The translations under genes and the position numbers were made by a program. From the IMG/VR virus record IMGVR_UViG_2711768053_000012, positions 1 through 12,001 of that record: DNA of 12,001 nt; one strand, given 5' to 3'. Source of the stretch: a virus (lineage: Duplodnaviria > Heunggongvirae > Uroviricota > Caudoviricetes). Each line of letters begins with the position of its first letter. Position 1 is the stretch's first letter. Below, piece by piece: positions 2,960-10,182 of this stretch. The notes under the pieces are model-generated. The model was not told the origin of the DNA. It saw only the letters and a program-made list of their open reading frames with translations, and made no database searches.

Positions 2960-3607
2960 TTATAGGTTGAACTGTACACCTTTTGCTACGGCAACAATTT
3001 TACACTCTGGCGTAAGCAAGGATGATTGATAGCGCGGATTGAGAGGGCTTAAATACACAAGTTTTCCATCAATAACTAATTTTTTTATAGTCATAGACGG
3101 TTCATTTGTAAGAGGATCTGGAACTATTACAGCGACGATACTGCCATTTTTATAACTTTCTCCTGGTCTTAGGATCACAGTGGCACCAACTGGGATACTT
3201 GGCGACCCTGAGGGGTTATGCATAGTGTCATCAGGCATTGAAACGGCAAAATCACCTTCCACTACATCAAAGAATGTGGTGATCCTATCGACATTTCCCA
3301 TTGTTTTCTCTCCTTCTAAGATTAGGAAAGAAATCGCGTCACCCCACGAAAAGTAGGGGATCTTGGTGCCTGGATTGCTCTGCACAAAAGATAGTTCAGG
3401 AGACGATACTCCATACAGGAGATAGGACTCAGTAGTTCCTAATGCTTGGGCTAACTTACTTAGAGCTTTGCTGCCGGGTTCGTTTAGATCTTTCTCCCAG
3501 TACCCTATAGTAACCCCAGTCACGCCTGAAAGCTTACCCAGTTCTACTTGGGTGAGTCCCTTATCTTTTCTGAGTTTCTTAAGCCTGATGCCAAGGCTTT
3601 CCATCAT
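2960..3607 (-). CDS. CI-like prophage repressor (N-terminal HTH_XRE, C-terminal S24 LexA-type self-cleaving peptidase)
   Basis: 215 aa. N-terminal HTH (LTQVELGKLSGVTGVTIGYWE). C-terminal S24 signatures: Ser in AVSMPD and Lys in IKKLVIDGKLVYLSPLNPRYQ, the latter closely resembling lambda CI [27 protein letters not shown] Shine-Dalgarno upstream of the ATG at 3607. Divergent from the cro-like gene. Confidence 0.9.
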   Translation of the reverse strand: MMESLGIRLKKLRKDKGLTQVELGKLSGVTGVTIGYWEKDLNEPGSKALSKLAQALGTTESYLLYGVSSPELSFVQSNPGTKIPYFSWGDAISFLILEGEKTMGNVDRITTFFDVVEGDFAVSMPDDTMHNPSGSPSIPVGATVILRPGESYKNGSIVAVIVPDPLTNEPSMTIKKLVIDGKLVYLSPLNPRYQSSLLTPECKIVAVAKGVQFNL

Positions 3608-3703: not shown

Positions 3704-3931
3704 ATGCGAGTTGATGAACTTGTTCAGTTTTTTGGCTCTGTTCAGAGGGTCGCTGATTTTTATGGGATAACCCGCGAAGCTATTTACATGTGGCGTAAGC
3801 GCCCCGGTGAAATAGTTCCGAAAGGGAGAGCTGCGGAAGCTGCTGCATACTCCAAGGGAAAATTATCTTTGAACCCAGAGCTTTACAAAAAGAAGGATAC
3901 CACTCAGAGCGAAAGGAAGAGTGATTCATGA
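3704..3931 (+). CDS. Cro-like HTH regulator (75 aa)
   Basis: GGAGAG Shine-Dalgarno 6 nt upstream. The motif ELVQFFGSVQRVADFYGITREAIYMWRKRPGEIVP parallels P22 Cro (VIDHFGTQRAVAKALGISDAAVSQWKEVIPE, from memory). First gene rightward of the repressor. Confidence 0.8.
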   Translation: MRVDELVQFFGSVQRVADFYGITREAIYMWRKRPGEIVPKGRAAEAAAYSKGKLSLNPELYKKKDTTQSERKSDS

Positions 3932-4353
3932 AAATCAAGCATGAGCACATCCGCATGGCGATGAATGCCTGGGCGCATCCGGATGGTGAAAAAGTTCCGG
4001 CAGCTGAAATAACCCGGGCTTATTTTGAGCTGGGTATGACGTTCCCGGAACTGTATGACGACAGCCATCCGGAAGCCCTGGCTCGCAATACTCAGAAAAT
4101 TTTCCGCTGGGTGGAGAAAGACACCCCTGATGCGGTTAAAAAAATTCAGGCGTTGTTACCAGCGATCGAAAAAGCAATGCCACCTCTGCTGGTGGCCCGA
4201 ATGCGCAGCCACAGTTCAGCCTATTTTCGGGAGCTGGTGGAGACGCGGGAACGACTGGTGAGAGATGCTGATGATTTTGTCGCAGTGGCGATCGCTGGTT
4301 TCAATCAGATGAATCGTGGTGGTCCGGCGGGAAATGCCCTGGTGATGCACTAA
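3928..4353 (+). CDS. ydaT: YdaT-like protein (CII functional analogue family), 141 aa
   Basis: Start overlaps the cro-like stop (ATGA). N-terminus MKIKHEHI and C-terminal ...VMH match my recollection of Rac/CP-933P YdaT; it occupies the cII position after cro. AGGAAGAG Shine-Dalgarno upstream. Confidence 0.6.
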   Translation: MKIKHEHIRMAMNAWAHPDGEKVPAAEITRAYFELGMTFPELYDDSHPEALARNTQKIFRWVEKDTPDAVKKIQALLPAIEKAMPPLLVARMRSHSSAYFRELVETRERLVRDADDFVAVAIAGFNQMNRGGPAGNALVMH

Positions 4354-4376: not shown

Positions 4377-5324
4377 ATGAGCAGCAAGCTTCATGGTCTT
4401 GTCTGGGAAGGGTGCGCCTTCACCGGCATGATCTTATCCAGGGTGGCAGTAATGGCTCGCCTTGCAGATTACAGCAATGACGAAGGTGTGTCATGGCCTG
4501 CAGTGGAGACCATTCGTCGTCAGATTGGGGCAAAGAGTGAATCAACGGTTAAAGCTGCGATAGCGGAACTGGAAAAGAACGGCTGGCTGACGAAGGAGGA
4601 ACGTAAGGTCGGTGGGCGTAATGTAAGCAATATCTACCGCCTTAATGTGGAAAAACTCGAAGCAGCAGCAGCGGCGGCGCGTGAGGCATATAAACCGAAA
4701 AGAAAAATTAGCCAGGCAAAAAATGACCCGTCAAATATTGCCCCCTCAACGGTTGACCCCTCAAATTTTGATGGATCAACCATTGATAAAAAACAGTCGG
4801 ATAGGGGGGCGATGGTTGGCCCCGATCCGTCAGTATTAAAACCTGATCCGTCAGATAAAAGATCTTTTCGTCCGGACGCTTCGCAACCGGACCCGCAGAC
4901 GGCTGAACAGGATTTTTTAACCCGACACCCTGACGCGGTTGTGTTCAGTGCGAAAAAACGCCAGTGGGGCAGCCAGGAAGATTTGGCGTGTGCGCAGTGG
5001 ATCTGGGGACGAATCGTGAGTCTTTACGAGCAGGCTGCCAGCGATGATGGCGAAATCATGCGACCGAAAGAACCCAACTGGACTGCATGGGCCAATGATG
5101 TGCGCACAATGCGGATGCTGGATGGCAGAACTCACAGACAAATTTGCGAAATGTTTGGTCGGGTACAGCGGGATCCATTCTGGGTAAAAAACGTCATGAG
5201 CCCGTCAAAGCTTCGCGAAAAATGGGATGAGCTGGTTATTCGTCTGGGGCGTTCGCCTGTACAGCGTTGCGTGAATCACATTTCTGAACCGGATACCGAA
5301 ATTCCGCCGGGCTTCAGGGGGTAA
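4377..5324 (+). CDS. Phage replication initiation protein (N-terminal HTH DNA-binding domain, low-complexity linker, C-terminal domain; lambda O-like organisation)
   Basis: 315 aa. N-terminal region LSRVAVMARLADYSNDEGVSWPAVETIRRQIGAKSESTVKAAIAELEKNGWL is typical of phage replication-initiator HTH domains. The linker DPSNIAPSTVDPSNFDGS...PDPSVLKPDPSDK is encoded by iteron-like DNA repeats. Sits after the cro/cII-like genes. Confidence 0.7.
   Translation: MSSKLHGLVWEGCAFTGMILSRVAVMARLADYSNDEGVSWPAVETIRRQIGAKSESTVKAAIAELEKNGWLTKEERKVGGRNVSNIYRLNVEKLEAAAAAAREAYKPKRKISQAKNDPSNIAPSTVDPSNFDGSTIDKKQSDRGAMVGPDPSVLKPDPSDKRSFRPDASQPDPQTAEQDFLTRHPDAVVFSAKKRQWGSQEDLACAQWIWGRIVSLYEQAASDDGEIMRPKEPNWTAWANDVRTMRMLDGRTHRQICEMFGRVQRDPFWVKNVMSPSKLREKWDELVIRLGRSPVQRCVNHISEPDTEIPPGFRG
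4725..4905 (+). repeat. Iteron-like direct repeats (candidate replication origin) inside the replication initiator gene
   Basis: GACCCGTCAAATATTG (4725-4740), GACCCCTCAAATTTTG (4755-4770), GATCCGTCAGTATTAAA (4824-4840), GATCCGTCAGATAAAA (4845-4860), plus degenerate copies near 4741-4750 and 4890-4899. Consensus GAYCCNTCA followed by an A/T-rich tail. Confidence 0.55.
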
Positions 5325-5366
5325 GTGTTGATTTGAGGTTATGAAGTTATTTTCTCAGGAGAGTTT

Positions 5367-5768
5367 ATGGGGACTATTTATACCGAAGAACAGCGGGAAA
5401 GATTACAGCGTCATATCGTTGACCTTGTGCGTAAAAACGGGCGTATGACAATGCCACAACTGGCATCGGCAACATATGCTTCACATGATTCCATTCGCCG
5501 GTACCTGAAGATGCTGGTGAGCGAGGGCGAAGTGTATGTTGTCAGCGGAAAAGGGGTATTCCTTTCAGAGAGGGTTTACCGTGAATGGCTGGCAAGTTCG
5601 GCAAGAAAAGCAAGGGTTATCCGCAAACCAGCACAAAAACAGGGTAAGGCAGGAGCACAACCCTATGACCGGCACCAGAACATAATTTGCCGTGAGTGCC
5701 GGAAGAGTGAAGTTATGCAGCGTGTACTGGCGTTCTATCAGGGAGATTTTCAGGAGGTGATGGAGTGA
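5367..5768 (+). CDS. Hypothetical phage protein with probable winged-helix DNA-binding N-terminus (133 aa)
   Basis: AGGAGA Shine-Dalgarno 5 nt upstream of ATG. The segment NGRMTMPQLASATYASHDSIRRYLKMLVSEGEV is wHTH-like; basic C-terminal tail. No helicase-loader features. Confidence 0.6.
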   Translation: MGTIYTEEQRERLQRHIVDLVRKNGRMTMPQLASATYASHDSIRRYLKMLVSEGEVYVVSGKGVFLSERVYREWLASSARKARVIRKPAQKQGKAGAQPYDRHQNIICRECRKSEVMQRVLAFYQGDFQEVME

Positions 5769-6070
5769 GGGTGAGGGTTTATATCGCCGGTCCGATGACC
5801 GGGTATAAAAATTTCAACCGTGAGGCGTTCCACAAGGCGGAAGAGGAACTGAAACGGGAAGGGCATACAGTCTTAAACCCAGCAGTACTTCCGGACGGAC
5901 TGACGCAGCCACACTATATGGATATTTGCATGGCAATGATTCGTTGTGTGGATGCGATTTACATGCTGAAAGGCTGGCAGCGGTCAGCAGGTGCTAAGGC
6001 AGAACTGGCACTGGCGGAGAAGCTGGGGCATGCAGTTATTTTTCAGGAGGCAACCAGTGAGCAACATTAA
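5765..6070 (+). CDS. DUF4406-like protein (nucleoside 2-deoxyribosyltransferase-like fold), 101 aa
   Basis: GTG start at 5765 overlapping the upstream stop, AGGAGG 7 nt upstream. N-terminal VYIAGPMTGYKNFNREAFHKAEEELKREGHTVLNP matches my recollection of the DUF4406 signature (YIAGPMTG...NP). Confidence 0.65.
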   Translation: MRVRVYIAGPMTGYKNFNREAFHKAEEELKREGHTVLNPAVLPDGLTQPHYMDICMAMIRCVDAIYMLKGWQRSAGAKAELALAEKLGHAVIFQEATSEQH

Positions 6071-6611
6071 TTACCAGGCACTGCGAATGGCGGCAGAAAA
6101 TGCAACCCCTGGCGAATGGTGTTCTGATGATTATGGGGTAATTGCCGATGCCGGACTGAACGCAAATTACTACATAGCATCATGCTCAGGACCAGATAAT
6201 CGCGCCAATAAGCGATTCATAGCGGCAGCCAATCCGGCTACCGTGCTGGCAGTGCTTGATGAACGGGGAGCCCAAAGCAAACGCATTGCAGAGCTGGAAG
6301 CTAATCTTGTGGCGCTGGCGGCGGAGAATGCAGGGCTGAATAAATTTATCGCACAGAGTTGCTACGTGTTTGATGGCGAGCAGGATGAAATATCTGATGC
6401 GTATATCTGCGCAAGAGACGGAGGTATGCCGCAAACCACGGCTACAGATGCTCTCCTGGCTGATGTACGGGCGGTGGCGTTTGACGAACTTCGCGCGGCG
6501 TTTGTCAGGCACGCAAAAGTTGCAGGACTGGATGATGCCGATACCGTAACGCTTAAGGAAGTGACAGAAGCATTGTTGCATTGTGCGGAACAGATTCGCT
6601 CGCCTGAATAA
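6057..6611 (+). CDS. Ead/Ea22-like phage protein
   Basis: The track ORF starts at 5991 inside the previous gene. I prefer the in-frame GTG at 6057 (AGGAGG 6045-6050, 6 nt upstream); an ATG at about 6090 is an alternative. The N-terminal motif INYQALRMAAENATPGEW resembles the conserved start of Ead/Ea22-like proteins as I recall them. Confidence 0.6.
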   Translation: MSNINYQALRMAAENATPGEWCSDDYGVIADAGLNANYYIASCSGPDNRANKRFIAAANPATVLAVLDERGAQSKRIAELEANLVALAAENAGLNKFIAQSCYVFDGEQDEISDAYICARDGGMPQTTATDALLADVRAVAFDELRAAFVRHAKVAGLDDADTVTLKEVTEALLHCAEQIRSPE

Positions 6612-7916: not shown

Positions 7917-8127
7917 AAACGGTTTGCGGGAAAAGGAGAGTTAAGTAGAATTGCTGCGGGTGCTTGAGGCTATCTGCCTCAGGCATGAACACCAAAAGGC
8001 AGATAGAGAAAAGCCCCAGTTAACATTACGCGTCCTGCAAGACGCTTAACATTAATCTGAGGCCCAATCTATGTCTCACAAATGTAGGTTAGCCTCTTAC
8101 GTGCCGAAAGGCAAGGAGAAGCAGGCT

Positions 8128-8283
8128 ATGAAGCAGCAAAAGGCGATGTTAATCGCCCTGATCGTCATCTGTTTAACCGTCATAGTGACGGCACTGGTAA
8201 CGAGGAAAGACCTCTGCGAGGTACGAATCCGAACCGGCCAGACGGAGGTCGCTGTCTTCACAGCTTACGAACCTGAGGAGTAA
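8128..8283 (+). CDS. hokD: Hok/Gef family type I toxin (51 aa)
   Basis: Product MKQQKAMLIALIVICLTVIVTALVTRKDLCEVRIRTGQTEVAVFTAYEPEE matches my recollection of E. coli HokD (RelF) and aligns closely with Gef/Hok. AAGGAGA Shine-Dalgarno 8 nt upstream of the ATG at 8128. The track ORF starts at an upstream in-frame ATG (8071) giving 70 aa. The upstream leader is highly structured and a terminator follows. Confidence 0.85.
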   Translation: MKQQKAMLIALIVICLTVIVTALVTRKDLCEVRIRTGQTEVAVFTAYEPEE

Positions 8284-9060: not shown

Positions 9061-10182
9061 GTGTTTAACGGTACTAATTTAAGACTTGCTCGTCTGTATC
9101 ACGAGCTATCTCTGGAGCAGGTTGCTGAGAAGGTTGAAAAAACACGCCAGTATGTACAGCGACTGGAGTCTGGTTCAGCTACTCCATCCCCAGAGCTTAT
9201 AAATAAATTAGCCGAGGTTTTGCGCGTGAAGCCCGCCTTTTTCGAAGGGCAGGAACATTCTCCTGTTAATGAAGAGATTGTACATTTTCGTAAACGCGCC
9301 TCGACAAGGATGTCAACGAAGCTATCAACACTCGCTAAGGCTGAGTTTTATCGTCGTTTTATTGATGTATTTGAAGATAACCTTAATTTGTCACCTGTTC
9401 GATTTCCTGAATTTCGTGTCCATACACAAGAAGATATCGAGCGAGCGGCAGAAAAATGTCGTATTGAGTGGGGCTTAGGCTTTGGCCCAATTGAAAATAT
9501 GACTCGCCTTGCCGAGAAACTTGGGGCGTTTGTTACTTCATTTGACTCCGTTTCGGATGAAGTAGATGCACTGTCTGTTCCTCTACGAAGGCCTTTTATT
9601 GTTCGAAATACAGCTAAAAATTCACCTTGTAGGCAACGCTTTGATATTGCTCATGAGGTTGCCCATTTGATTCTTCATGAAGGAATTTCTACTGGGGATA
9701 GATTAACTGAATCCCAGGCAAACCGCTTTGCCTCTGCTCTGTTGCTTCCCAGAACGTCGATGGCGAAATATTTTCCAAGACCTGTGGGGGGGAGGATAAA
9801 TTGGCAGGGACTAAGCCAATTTAAGTTGACATGGAAAGTAAGTAAGGCTGCCATTGTTTACAGGGCTCATCAATTAGGACTTTTGACTGATGAGCAGTAC
9901 AGAACTGCATTTATGGGGTTGAAACGGAAAGGGGAAGCTATTGATGAAAAAGAAGATTATCTAATCCCTCATGAGCGTCCTGAGTTATTCCGTCGGGCTT
10001 TATCGTTTTTATTTGAAGAGTTAGGATACGACCCACAGCGTATAGCTGATGAAATGGATATAGAAGTGGACATTTTTTATGAGTTAGTAGGAGATGATCT
10101 TCCTGCGGTTCATGAACTGCCAGGAAGTGGTGATGTTGTTTCACTACAATCTTACCGAACTCTTAGAGGCAAAATTCACTAG
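9061..10182 (+). CDS. Fused HTH_XRE DNA-binding domain plus ImmA/IrrE-family (DUF955/COG2856-type) HExxH zinc metallopeptidase, 373 aa
   Basis: GTG start at 9061, first start after an in-frame stop and 10 nt after the upstream gene's stop. N-terminal HTH (LSLEQVAEKVEKTRQYVQRLESGSATPSPELINKLAEVLRV); HEVAH (HExxH) at about 9652-9666 inside FDIAHEVAHLILHE, typical of ImmA/IrrE peptidases; about 120-aa C-terminal extension. A terminator follows immediately. Confidence 0.8.
   Translation: MFNGTNLRLARLYHELSLEQVAEKVEKTRQYVQRLESGSATPSPELINKLAEVLRVKPAFFEGQEHSPVNEEIVHFRKRASTRMSTKLSTLAKAEFYRRFIDVFEDNLNLSPVRFPEFRVHTQEDIERAAEKCRIEWGLGFGPIENMTRLAEKLGAFVTSFDSVSDEVDALSVPLRRPFIVRNTAKNSPCRQRFDIAHEVAHLILHEGISTGDRLTESQANRFASALLLPRTSMAKYFPRPVGGRINWQGLSQFKLTWKVSKAAIVYRAHQLGLLTDEQYRTAFMGLKRKGEAIDEKEDYLIPHERPELFRRALSFLFEELGYDPQRIADEMDIEVDIFYELVGDDLPAVHELPGSGDVVSLQSYRTLRGKIH

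What the first reader, a model, noticed from the sequence alone, without database searches (positions are those of the whole stretch)
4725..4905. Iteron-like repeats inside the replication initiator gene: probable origin of replication
At least four copies of a GAYCCNTCA-plus-A/T-tail motif occur in two pairs (4725/4755 and 4824/4845), with degenerate copies nearby. They lie in the DNA encoding the low-complexity Pro/Asp/Ser linker between the N-terminal HTH domain and the C-terminal domain of the initiator. This mirrors lambda, where ori iterons sit inside gene O and are bound by the O N-terminal domain.
Basis: partly seen in the sequence, partly recalled or inferred. Interest (0 to 1): 0.5.

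Follow-up and report, generated by a model that had tools for sequence, protein, structure and literature searches.

The report
Prophage replication origin inside initiator gene
The short DNA repeats inside this E. coli prophage's replication-initiator gene are conserved as DNA rather than as protein, and are most likely the phage's replication origin, built like the textbook phage lambda origin but with a different repeat sequence.

Summary
GAYCCNTCA has 5 exact hits in 12 kb, all within 4725-4853, against 0.67 expected. The repeat unit is a 12-bp element, TTGAYCCNTCAA. It forms a 15-bp-period array (4723-4794), with one copy inverted, followed by two 21-bp GATCCGTCAG repeats (4824-4865).

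The repeats lie in a predicted disordered linker (aa 109-167) of a lambda-O-like initiator with a winged-helix N-domain and an O-type C-domain.

They are DNA-level elements, not a by-product of a peptide repeat:
- Across 80 distinct genes from many Enterobacterales genera, Ser in DPS is TCA in 97% of cases, against 14% elsewhere.
- The unit occurs in both orientations (DPS versus EGS/DGS/KGS) and in another reading frame.
- It is several hundred-fold enriched in the linker.
- Copy number varies by 15-nt steps.

The motif follows the N-domain and not the neighbouring genes. The same C-domain fused to a different N-domain carries different repeats, with a 23-nt period in three frames.

The stretch 4833-4868 (69% AT) is the positional homologue of the lambda/phi80 AT-rich segment.

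Verdict: a probable lambda-type origin, and a new member of a known kind. Initiator binding and origin activity are inferred, not shown. The window has no helicase-loader gene.

The parts
4377..5324 (+). Lambda-O-like replication initiator gene (315 aa). Winged-helix N-domain aa 1-104, disordered linker aa 109-167, O-type C-domain aa 173-290, DnaT-like tail aa 296-315.
   Evidence: PHROG 391 'replication initiation O-like', E 4e-113. Pfam HTH_36, E 5e-8. BLASTP to lambda O C-domain 2e-25 and to phi80 gp15 2e-26. AlphaFold2 model.
4688..4723 (+). A-rich, purine-skewed tract immediately left of the repeat array (ATATAAACCGAAAAGAAAAATTAGCCAGGCAAAAAA).
   Evidence: One of the three least stable 40-bp stretches in the gene. 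AT skew is about 0.5-0.65. It is absent in PhiR49_1, so it is not a conserved element.
4723..4734 (+). Iteron unit 1, ATGACCCGTCAA.
   Evidence: Its 15-nt register with units 2-5 is shown.
4738..4749 (+). Iteron unit 2, TTGCCCCCTCAA. It has one mismatch to the consensus and reads TTGACCCCTCAA in the common E. coli allele.
4753..4764 (+). Iteron unit 3, TTGACCCCTCAA, which matches the consensus.
4768..4779 (-). Iteron unit 4 in inverted orientation. TTGATGGATCAA on the + strand equals TTGATCCATCAA on the - strand. With unit 3 it forms a 41-nt palindrome (4746-4786).
   Evidence: Minus-strand hit at 4769-4777. Inverted repeat I1. Inverted units are conserved in Erwinia, Morganella, Edwardsiella and Kosakonia relatives. 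The ssDNA fold z-score is -3.1.
4783..4794 (+). Degenerate fifth unit, TTGATAAAAAAC, with only the left half-site kept. It is in 15-nt register.
4801..4827 (.). Degenerate inverted unit ATAGGGGGGCGA (4801-4812) and half-unit TTGGCCCCGATC (4816-4827). They correspond to TTAAGGGGTCAA...TTGACCCCGATC in relatives.
   Evidence: Comparison with L086, L088, L091 and L092.
4824..4865 (+). Two 21-bp repeats, GATCCGTCAGTATTAAAACCT and GATCCGTCAGATAAAAGATCT. They share the core motif, carry Dam GATC sites, and have the two-helical-turn spacing seen in lambda and phi80.
   Evidence: They are conserved as 21- or 24-bp repeats across sub-families, with three copies in L155.
4833..4868 (.). Candidate AT-rich unwinding segment (69% AT). 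It is the positional homologue of the AT-rich part of the lambda and phi80 origins.
   Evidence: The least stable 40-bp stretch in the gene is 4829-4868. It aligns with lambda and phi80 just left of the shared landmark. AT percentages were counted directly from the sequences.
4857..4874 (+). Landmark AAAAGATCTTTTCGTCCG at the right edge of the origin. It also marks the recombination junction between the N-domain-plus-repeats module and the C-domain module.
   Evidence: Megablast matches to genes with other N-domains start at query 481, which is window 4857. The landmark aligns with phi80, lambda, PhiR49_1 and HannyBb.

Best explanation
The segment at about 4723-4868 is most likely the replication origin of this lambdoid (Qin/dicB-type) E. 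coli prophage. It sits inside the gene of its own initiator, as the lambda origin sits inside gene O.

Shown here:
- The repeats are conserved as DNA, independently of the peptide they encode.
- The unit is a 12-bp element, TTGAYCCNTCAA, with palindromic TTGA/TCAA ends. There are four to five copies at a 15-bp period, one of them inverted, followed by two 21-bp GATCCGTCAG repeats embedded in the most AT-rich, least stable part of the gene.
- The array lies in a disordered, indel-tolerant linker of a protein whose C-domain is homologous to lambda O.
- The array is always inherited with the winged-helix N-domain and is replaced by other repeats when the N-domain is replaced.

Inferred:
- Dimers of the N-terminal winged-helix domain bind the units and build an O-some-like nucleoprotein complex.
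- The complex destabilises the adjacent AT-rich stretch (about 4833-4868).
- The C-domain, and possibly the DnaT-like C-terminal tail, then brings in the host DnaB helicase. Because this window has no P or DnaC-like gene, that step would have to use the host loader.
For: Statistics: 5 hits against 0.67 expected, all within 129 bp.

DNA-level constraint:
- Ser in linker DPS motifs is TCA in 207 of 213 cases across 80 distinct genes, against 14% TCA outside the linker. The conserved Ser33 control uses six codons.
- All DPS serines are TCA in 68 of 74 genes.
- The 10-mer occurs at 4.33 per kb in the linkers against 0.005 per kb in 391 kb of flanking DNA. Reverse-complement copies occur at 1.07 against 0.005 per kb.
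- Forward copies encode DPS. Reverse copies encode EGS, DGS or KGS. One copy sits in another frame and encodes LRG.
- Synonymous to non-synonymous changes are 2:7 in the repeats against 49:16 elsewhere, Fisher p = 0.003.
- Natural alleles are 933, 948 or 963 nt long, differing by whole 15-nt units.

Association with the N-domain:
- At least 2 copies are present in 76 of 80 loci chosen for the N-domain alone. In those loci YdaT is present in 1 of 80, DUF977 in 0 of 80 and the O-type C-domain in 18 of 80.
- Genes with the same C-domain (about 90% DNA identity) but another N-domain have no copy. They carry instead five CATCRGGTCAAAATG repeats at a 23-nt period in three frames.
- The module junction lies at 4857, right after the last repeat.

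Homology to known origins:
- The C-domain matches lambda O and phi80 gp15.
- Annotated lambda and phi80 iterons occupy the same place in their genes.
- A landmark sequence is shared on the right of the AT-rich segment.
- The literature places the lambdoid origin (iterons plus an AT-rich tract) in the middle of O, and reports that extra iterons add residues to O (PMC7466680).

Structure: a winged-helix N-domain, a disordered segment at aa 109-167, and a folded C-domain.
Against: - There is no binding or replication experiment.
- The AT-rich segment is modest: 69% AT and z of about 1.8 within the window. That is similar to phi80 but weaker than lambda.
- The 15-bp spacing puts neighbouring units on nearly opposite faces of the helix. 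Lambda and phi80 use 20-24-bp spacing.
- No P-like or DnaC-like loader gene follows the initiator in this window, although about half of close relatives have one. The prophage may therefore be replication-defective, or may depend on host factors.
- All copies in the window itself are in one reading frame. The frame and orientation argument therefore rests partly on relatives.
- The 80 comparison loci were selected on the N-domain, so the association has been tested in one direction mainly.
Confidence: 0.72

Rival explanations
1. The DNA repeats are only the footprint of a repetitive Asp-Pro-Ser peptide linker, with selection acting on the protein, or of replication slippage in a low-complexity coding region. 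They have no cis-acting role.
For: In the window every + strand copy is in the same frame and encodes DPS. The periods, 15 and 21 nt, are multiples of three. DPS-like peptides recur in distant homologues. Copy number changes by whole units, as slippage would produce.
Against: The Ser wobble base is fixed as TCA in 97% of cases against 14% background, with a variable Ser33 control. Inverted copies encode EGS, DGS or KGS, and one copy is in another frame. Non-synonymous changes exceed synonymous ones in the repeats. The sister N-domain type has repeats in three frames. AlphaFold2 predicts the peptide to be disordered.
Confidence: 0.03
2. The repeats are initiator-binding sites, but their main role is regulatory rather than origin firing. 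They might titrate or handcuff the initiator, or form a transcriptional roadblock or autoregulatory element inside the pR operon. Replication would then start elsewhere.
For: Iterons in plasmids also act in copy control, which is established knowledge of iteron plasmids. There is no strongly AT-rich unwinding element next to the array. The 15-bp spacing is unlike the lambda and phi80 origin iterons.
Against: The position and flanks are homologous to the lambda and phi80 origins. No other repeat cluster or copy of the motif exists in the 12-kb window. The least stable DNA of the gene coincides with the array.
Confidence: 0.1
3. The repeats are DNA sites for a different factor: a neighbouring phage protein such as the DUF977 winged-helix protein or the YdaT/CII-like protein, or a host protein. 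Alternatively they act as recombination hotspots that promote module exchange at the N/C junction.
For: A DUF977 winged-helix gene lies directly downstream. The mosaic junction sits at the end of the array. GATC sites cluster there, which could point to SeqA or Dam.
Against: The motif is conserved in 76 of 80 loci from other genera that lack DUF977 (0 of 80) and YdaT (1 of 80). It disappears when only the N-domain is exchanged.
Confidence: 0.05
4. The segment is a genuine origin sequence but is vestigial here. The prophage has lost its helicase loader and no longer replicates autonomously.
For: No P-like or DnaC-like gene lies within the window. DUF977 follows the initiator directly, whereas 39 of 80 close relatives carry a DnaC-like gene and Erwinia, Morganella and Edwardsiella relatives carry a lambda-P-like gene.
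Against: The initiator ORF is intact and the repeats are close to consensus. The loader-less arrangement is itself common, found in 39 of 80 relatives, and the gene is present at 80% or greater coverage in 1515 of 5426 complete E. coli genomes. The DnaT-like tail could recruit the host machinery.
Confidence: 0.25

Closest known systems
Phage lambda origin (four iterons plus an AT-rich tract inside gene O)
   Same: The origin lies inside the initiator gene, between the DNA-binding N-domain and the C-domain. The first repeat is 347-348 nt into the gene in both. The C-domains are homologous at 36% identity, E 2e-25. The units have palindromic ends. The repeats code for a flexible linker, so copy-number changes add or remove residues (PMC7466680). 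The gene order cI, cro, cII-like, O-like is the same.
   Different: The unit is 12 bp (TTGAYCCNTCAA) at a 15-bp period, with mixed orientation. Lambda has 18-19-bp dyad-symmetric units in one orientation at 20-24 bp. The N-domain is not detectably similar to lambda O by BLASTP. The AT-rich part is weaker. There is no P gene. A DnaT-like tail is present.
Phage phi80 origin (four gp15-binding sites inside gene 15)
   Same: The architecture is the same. The AT-rich segment has similar composition, about 67% against 69% AT. It is followed by the nearly identical landmark AAAAGATCTTCGTCCG. The C-domains are homologous, E 2e-26.
   Different: The phi80 sites are TTCCCGAAAACGG-type at 20-21 bp spacing. 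A lambda-P-like gene 14 follows.
Stx-phage replication types Eru8, Eru11 and Eru13 (a YdaT-like gene plus an HTH_36 protein next to cI)
   Same: The gene content is the same type: cro, a YdaT-like gene, and an HTH_36 initiator (PMC8951638).
   Different: Those types were defined by gene content only. The paper contains neither the word 'iteron' nor the phrase 'origin of replication'. Sequence identity to the window was not tested here.
Iteron-regulated plasmid replicons (pPS10 RepA, R6K pi, F RepE)
   Same: A winged-helix initiator is paired with tandem short DNA repeats next to AT-rich DNA. This works in a similar way.
   Different: Plasmid iterons are 17-22 bp, in helical phase, and lie outside the rep gene. 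Those Rep proteins have tandem WH1-WH2 domains. This protein has a single winged-helix domain plus an O-type C-domain. It is not a member of that group.

Membership tests
Lambda-type origin (origin embedded in an O-family initiator gene) | A repeat array located inside the initiator gene, between the parts coding for the N-terminal DNA-binding domain and the C-terminal domain. | tested here: met
   The array at 4723-4865 corresponds to codons 116-163. The winged-helix domain is aa 1-104 and the C-domain is aa 173-290. The offset matches lambda.
Lambda-type origin (origin embedded in an O-family initiator gene) | The repeats are conserved as DNA (cis-acting) rather than as peptide. | tested here: met
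   Wobble fixation, both orientations, a second reading frame, and several hundred-fold local enrichment.
Lambda-type origin (origin embedded in an O-family initiator gene) | Three or more iterons of about 18-19 bp with internal dyad symmetry, spaced about two helical turns apart (20-24 bp). | tested here: inconclusive
   The units have palindromic TTGA/TCAA ends, but they are 12 bp long at a 15-bp period and in mixed orientation. Only the 4824/4845 pair has the 21-bp spacing.
Lambda-type origin (origin embedded in an O-family initiator gene) | An AT-rich unwinding segment directly to the right of the iterons. | tested here: inconclusive
   The stretch 4833-4868 is 69% AT, is the least stable 40-mer in the gene (z = 1.8), and is the positional homologue of the lambda and phi80 segment. 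It overlaps the 21-bp repeats and is weaker than in lambda.
Lambda-type origin (origin embedded in an O-family initiator gene) | The repeat type is specific to the initiator's N-domain (type specificity). | tested here: met
   The motif is present with this N-domain in 76 of 80 loci, whatever the neighbouring genes or C-domain. It is absent and replaced by other repeats when the N-domain differs but the C-domain is the same.
Lambda-type origin (origin embedded in an O-family initiator gene) | The initiator binds the iterons and forms an O-some. | not testable with these tools
   This needs EMSA or footprinting.
Lambda-type origin (origin embedded in an O-family initiator gene) | The fragment supports initiator-dependent autonomous replication. 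| not testable with these tools
   The only hint is anecdotal. PLSDB record NZ_CP148542.1 is a 16-kb circular record made up solely of such an early region.
Lambda O / P replication module | An O-type C-terminal domain. | tested here: met
   BLASTP 2e-25 to lambda O aa 155-270. PHROG 391 matches over the full length.
Lambda O / P replication module | An adjacent P-type, or other, helicase-loader gene. | tested here: not met
   tblastn with lambda P and a DnaC-like protein finds nothing in the window. DUF977 follows the initiator.
Pfam HTH_36 (PF13730) | A score above the gathering threshold. | tested here: met
   33 bits against a cut-off of 25, over aa 25-71.
Iteron plasmid Rep family (WH1-WH2 initiators) | Two tandem winged-helix domains, with iterons outside the rep gene. 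| tested here: not met
   The model shows a single winged-helix domain, and the repeats lie inside the gene.

The most novel reading that the evidence does not exclude
This O-type initiator may start replication without any phage-encoded helicase loader. In this reading, an array of alternately oriented TTGA/TCAA half-sites at a 15-bp period builds a nucleoprotein complex geometrically different from the lambda O-some. The protein's C-terminal 20 residues, a near copy of the C-terminal tail of host DnaT, plug the origin directly into the host PriA/PriB/DnaT-DnaC replication-restart pathway to load DnaB.
Probability: 0.12. Interest if true: 0.65.

Novelty: new member of a known kind. Interest (0 to 1): 0.35.

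Why it matters
This initiator type is very common. Sequence covering at least 80% of the gene is found in 1515 of 5426 complete E. coli genomes. Relatives occur in Shigella phages SfII and SfIV and in many Enterobacterales genera. RefSeq calls the protein only 'helix-turn-helix domain-containing protein', and no origin is annotated or described in the literature I could search.

Knowing the iteron sequence, the copy-number polymorphism and the module boundaries would give three things:
- a ready-made origin annotation for a large class of prophages, including relatives of the Stx-phage 'Eru' replication types
- a defined fragment for building mini-replicons
- a clear example for gene finders and selection scans that apparent relaxed protein constraint combined with frozen wobble bases marks an embedded cis element.

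It does not change the concept. An origin embedded in the initiator gene has been known for lambdoid phages since about 1980.

Tried and rejected
- Peptide-repeat by-product: rejected on codon, orientation and frame evidence.
- Structured RNA: Rfam finds nothing in the gene; its only hit is sok at 7958-8133. The RNA fold z-score is only -1.9, and the orientation of units differs between relatives, so no conserved RNA structure is plausible.
- DnaA boxes: 3 one-mismatch hits against 2.6 expected. The only one inside the initiator gene (4646-4654) lies about 70 bp upstream of the array.
- Relaxed 10-mer with 2 mismatches: not enriched window-wide, 51 against 55 expected. Only the strict motif is informative.
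- Binding by DUF977 or YdaT: rejected because these genes are absent from loci that keep the motif.
- Fold search of the model: returned only generic winged-helix regulators (ArsR, MarR, PadR types) with E above 1e-3, which gives no specific initiator relative.
- First protein search with the N-domain alone: returned mostly partial proteins and was of limited use.
- Literature searches for the repeat sequences, for HTH_36 with iterons, and in the SfIV genome paper: no description of this origin was found.
- 16-kb circular PLSDB record: noted but not used as evidence, because its initiator gene is frameshifted, probably by long-read errors.

Full report
**Context**

The window is the early-right region of a lambdoid E. 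coli prophage. Its gene order is:
- a LexA/CI-type repressor (2960-3607, minus strand)
- a P22-Cro-like gene (3704-3931)
- a YdaT/CII-like gene (3928-4353)
- a 315-aa protein (4377-5324)
- DUF977 (5367-5768) and DUF4406 (5765-6070)
- nin-region genes, DUF968 and RusA.

The closest complete genome copy is 99.3% identical and sits between dicB/exonuclease and hokD/Q genes. RefSeq names the protein only 'helix-turn-helix domain-containing protein'. The 315-aa protein matches PHROG 391 'replication initiation O-like' over its full length (E 4e-113). It carries Pfam HTH_36 at aa 25-71. Its aa 161-288 align with the C-terminal domain of lambda O (36% identity, 2e-25), and its aa 178-299 align with phi80 gp15 (2e-26). 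It is therefore an O-family initiator with a different N-terminal domain.

**The observation**

GAYCCNTCA has five exact matches in 12 kb, all between 4725 and 4853. Four are on the + strand and one is on the - strand at 4769-4777. The expectation is 0.67, and none of 200 shuffles reached five. Tandem Repeats Finder reports a 15-nt period over 4724-4771.

Read in register, the array is:
- ATGACCCGTCAA (4723-4734)
- TTGCCCCCTCAA (4738-4749)
- TTGACCCCTCAA (4753-4764)
- TTGATGGATCAA (4768-4779), the reverse complement of the unit
- TTGATAAAAAAC (4783-4794), degenerate.

Degenerate remnants follow at 4801-4827. After them come two 21-bp repeats that start with GATCCGTCAG, at 4824 and 4845.

**DNA or peptide?**

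In the window all + strand copies encode Asp-Pro-Ser in one frame. The window alone therefore cannot decide whether the repeats are selected as DNA or as peptide, so I collected relatives:
- 80 close relatives from viral contigs
- 80 loci from different species that carry the same N-domain family at 53-77% identity. These include Erwinia, Mixta, Morganella, Edwardsiella, Kosakonia, Yersinia, Providencia, Rahnella and others.

Four results point to DNA-level selection.

1. Wobble fixation. Across 80 distinct full-length genes, the Ser codon of linker DPS motifs is TCA in 207 of 213 cases. TCA is 14% of Ser codons outside the linker. The invariant Ser33 of the N-domain uses six different codons in the same genes. 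All DPS serines are TCA in 68 of 74 genes.
2. Local enrichment. The 10-mer TGAYCCNTCA occurs at 4.33 per kb in the linker windows against 0.005 per kb in the other 391 kb of those loci. Its reverse complement occurs at 1.07 against 0.005 per kb.
3. Both orientations and a second frame. In the window's own sub-family, TTGACCCCTCAA and TTGAGGGGTCAA alternate in the same 15-bp register. They encode DPS in one orientation and EGS, DGS or KGS in the other. In two loci a reverse copy lies in another reading frame and encodes LRG.
4. Substitution pattern. Between the two main E. coli alleles (90% identical), the repeat region has 2 synonymous and 7 non-synonymous codon changes, against 49 and 16 in the rest of the gene (Fisher p = 0.003). 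The peptide is therefore free to vary while certain bases are not.

Natural alleles are 933, 948 or 963 nt long and differ by whole 15-nt units. AlphaFold2, run with a 42-sequence alignment, predicts a winged-helix domain (aa 1-104), no structure for aa 109-167 (pLDDT below 50) and a confident helical C-domain (aa 173-290). The repeats therefore code for a disordered, indel-tolerant linker.

**Who goes with the repeats?**

In the 80 species-level loci, at least two copies of the core are present in 76. A YdaT homologue is present in 1 of those 80 loci, DUF977 in 0, and the O-type C-domain in only 18.

The converse also holds. E. coli prophages and phage HannyBb carry the same C-domain (about 90% DNA identity from window position 4857 onward) fused to another N-domain. 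They have no copy of the motif. At the same place they carry five CATCRGGTCAAAATG repeats at a 23-nt period, so in all three frames, followed by an AT-rich ACAGAGAATACA triplet.

The recombination junction lies immediately after the last repeat. The N-domain and the repeats thus travel together as one module. This is the classical signature of initiator-origin type specificity in lambdoid phages.

**Comparison with characterised origins**

The lambda and phi80 records annotate four initiator-binding sites inside O and gene 15. They begin 348 and 364 nt into the gene and are spaced 20-24 bp apart. The first unit here begins 347 nt into the gene.

To the right of the phi80 sites lies a stretch of about 67% AT that ends in AAAAGATCTTCGTCCG. 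The window has AAAAGATCTTTTCGTCCG at 4857-4874, preceded by 4833-4868 at 69% AT. Lambda aligns there too. That stretch contains the least stable 40-mer of the gene, although it is not extreme for the window as a whole (z = 1.8).

The literature confirms that the lambdoid origin consists of iterons plus an AT-rich tract in the middle of O. It also reports that extra iterons lengthen the O protein (PMC7466680). By HHpred, the N-domain of lambda O is itself HTH_36-like (PMC5509034).

Papers that classify Stx-phage replication regions list YdaT plus HTH_36 types (Eru8, 11, 13) but never mention iterons or an origin (PMC8951638). Searches for the repeat sequences themselves, and of the SfIV genome paper, found no description.

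**Mechanism**

Shown: a DNA-level repeat array specific to the N-domain, placed where lambda and phi80 have their origins, in an O-family initiator gene.

Inferred:
- Winged-helix dimers bind the palindromic-ended units.
- The resulting complex opens the neighbouring AT-rich DNA.
- The C-domain recruits the helicase.

**Weak points**
- Nothing has been tested by binding or replication experiments.
- The 15-bp spacing places adjacent units on nearly opposite faces of the helix.
- The AT-rich element is modest.
- This window lacks a helicase-loader gene. In contrast, 39 of 80 close relatives have a DnaC-like gene, and Erwinia, Morganella and Edwardsiella relatives have a lambda-P-like gene.

The last 20 residues of the protein (QRCVNHISEPDTEIPPGFRG) nearly copy the C-terminal tail of E. 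coli DnaT. This hints at a route to the host loader, but I did not pursue it.

**Verdict**

The interpretation as a lambda-type origin is well supported by comparative evidence, and the rival 'peptide by-product' explanation is rejected. It is a new member of a known kind: common, unannotated, and ordinary in concept.

Noticed in passing
window 5262-5321: The last 20 residues of the initiator (QRCVNHISEPDTEIPPGFRG) match the extreme C-terminal tail of E. coli DnaT ([20 protein letters not shown]; PDB 2ru8, 6aep, 9zbt; E about 1e-4). The same tail ends an otherwise unrelated 'primosomal protein I' of Stx phage POCJ13, so it behaves as a third mobile module.
   Followed up: partly
window 5324-6100; loci L006-L165: No helicase-loader gene follows the initiator. 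DUF977 (called 'Ren-like' in PHROGs) comes next. Among 80 close relatives, 39 have a DnaC-like gene nearby and 39 have only DUF977. Erwinia, Morganella and Edwardsiella relatives have a lambda-P-like gene.
   Followed up: partly
window 4774-4864: Four Dam GATC sites lie within 91 bp, three of them within 41 bp. The whole 12-kb window has 33, which is below the shuffle expectation of 46. This is the densest cluster and lies in the putative origin.
   Followed up: no
window 4746-4786: A 41-nt near-perfect palindrome is formed by head-to-head units 3 and 4. The 4715-4870 strand folds as ssDNA with a z-score of -3.1, so hairpin or cruciform formation is possible.
   Followed up: partly
L170 (NZ_CP148542.1, whole record): A 15,977-bp circular PLSDB 'plasmid' consists only of a lambdoid early-right region, from cI to the lysis genes. 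It has this initiator type plus a DnaC-like gene and no typed plasmid replicon. The initiator is frameshifted in the C-runs of the repeats, probably through long-read errors. It could be a lambda-dv-like replicon or an assembly product.
   Followed up: partly
window 7958-8133: Rfam sok antisense RNA (122 bits). This indicates a hok/sok-type toxin-antitoxin module in the nin region.
   Followed up: no
window 9061-10182: A 373-aa ORF matches a phage 'transcriptional regulator' family over its full length (phrog_2439) and has weaker matches to metalloprotease and repressor families. It looks like an ImmA/IrrE-like HTH-protease regulator in the late-early region.
   Followed up: no
L149, L155, L164 (gene nt 330-540): More distant N-domain sub-types carry variant repeats built on a CCAGAATCTGG / GTCAGAATCTGAC palindrome (HPPESG peptides). 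They also have up to three 24-bp GATCCACAAGTAAATTCAAAACAT repeats. This suggests graded divergence of the site along with the N-domain.
   Followed up: partly
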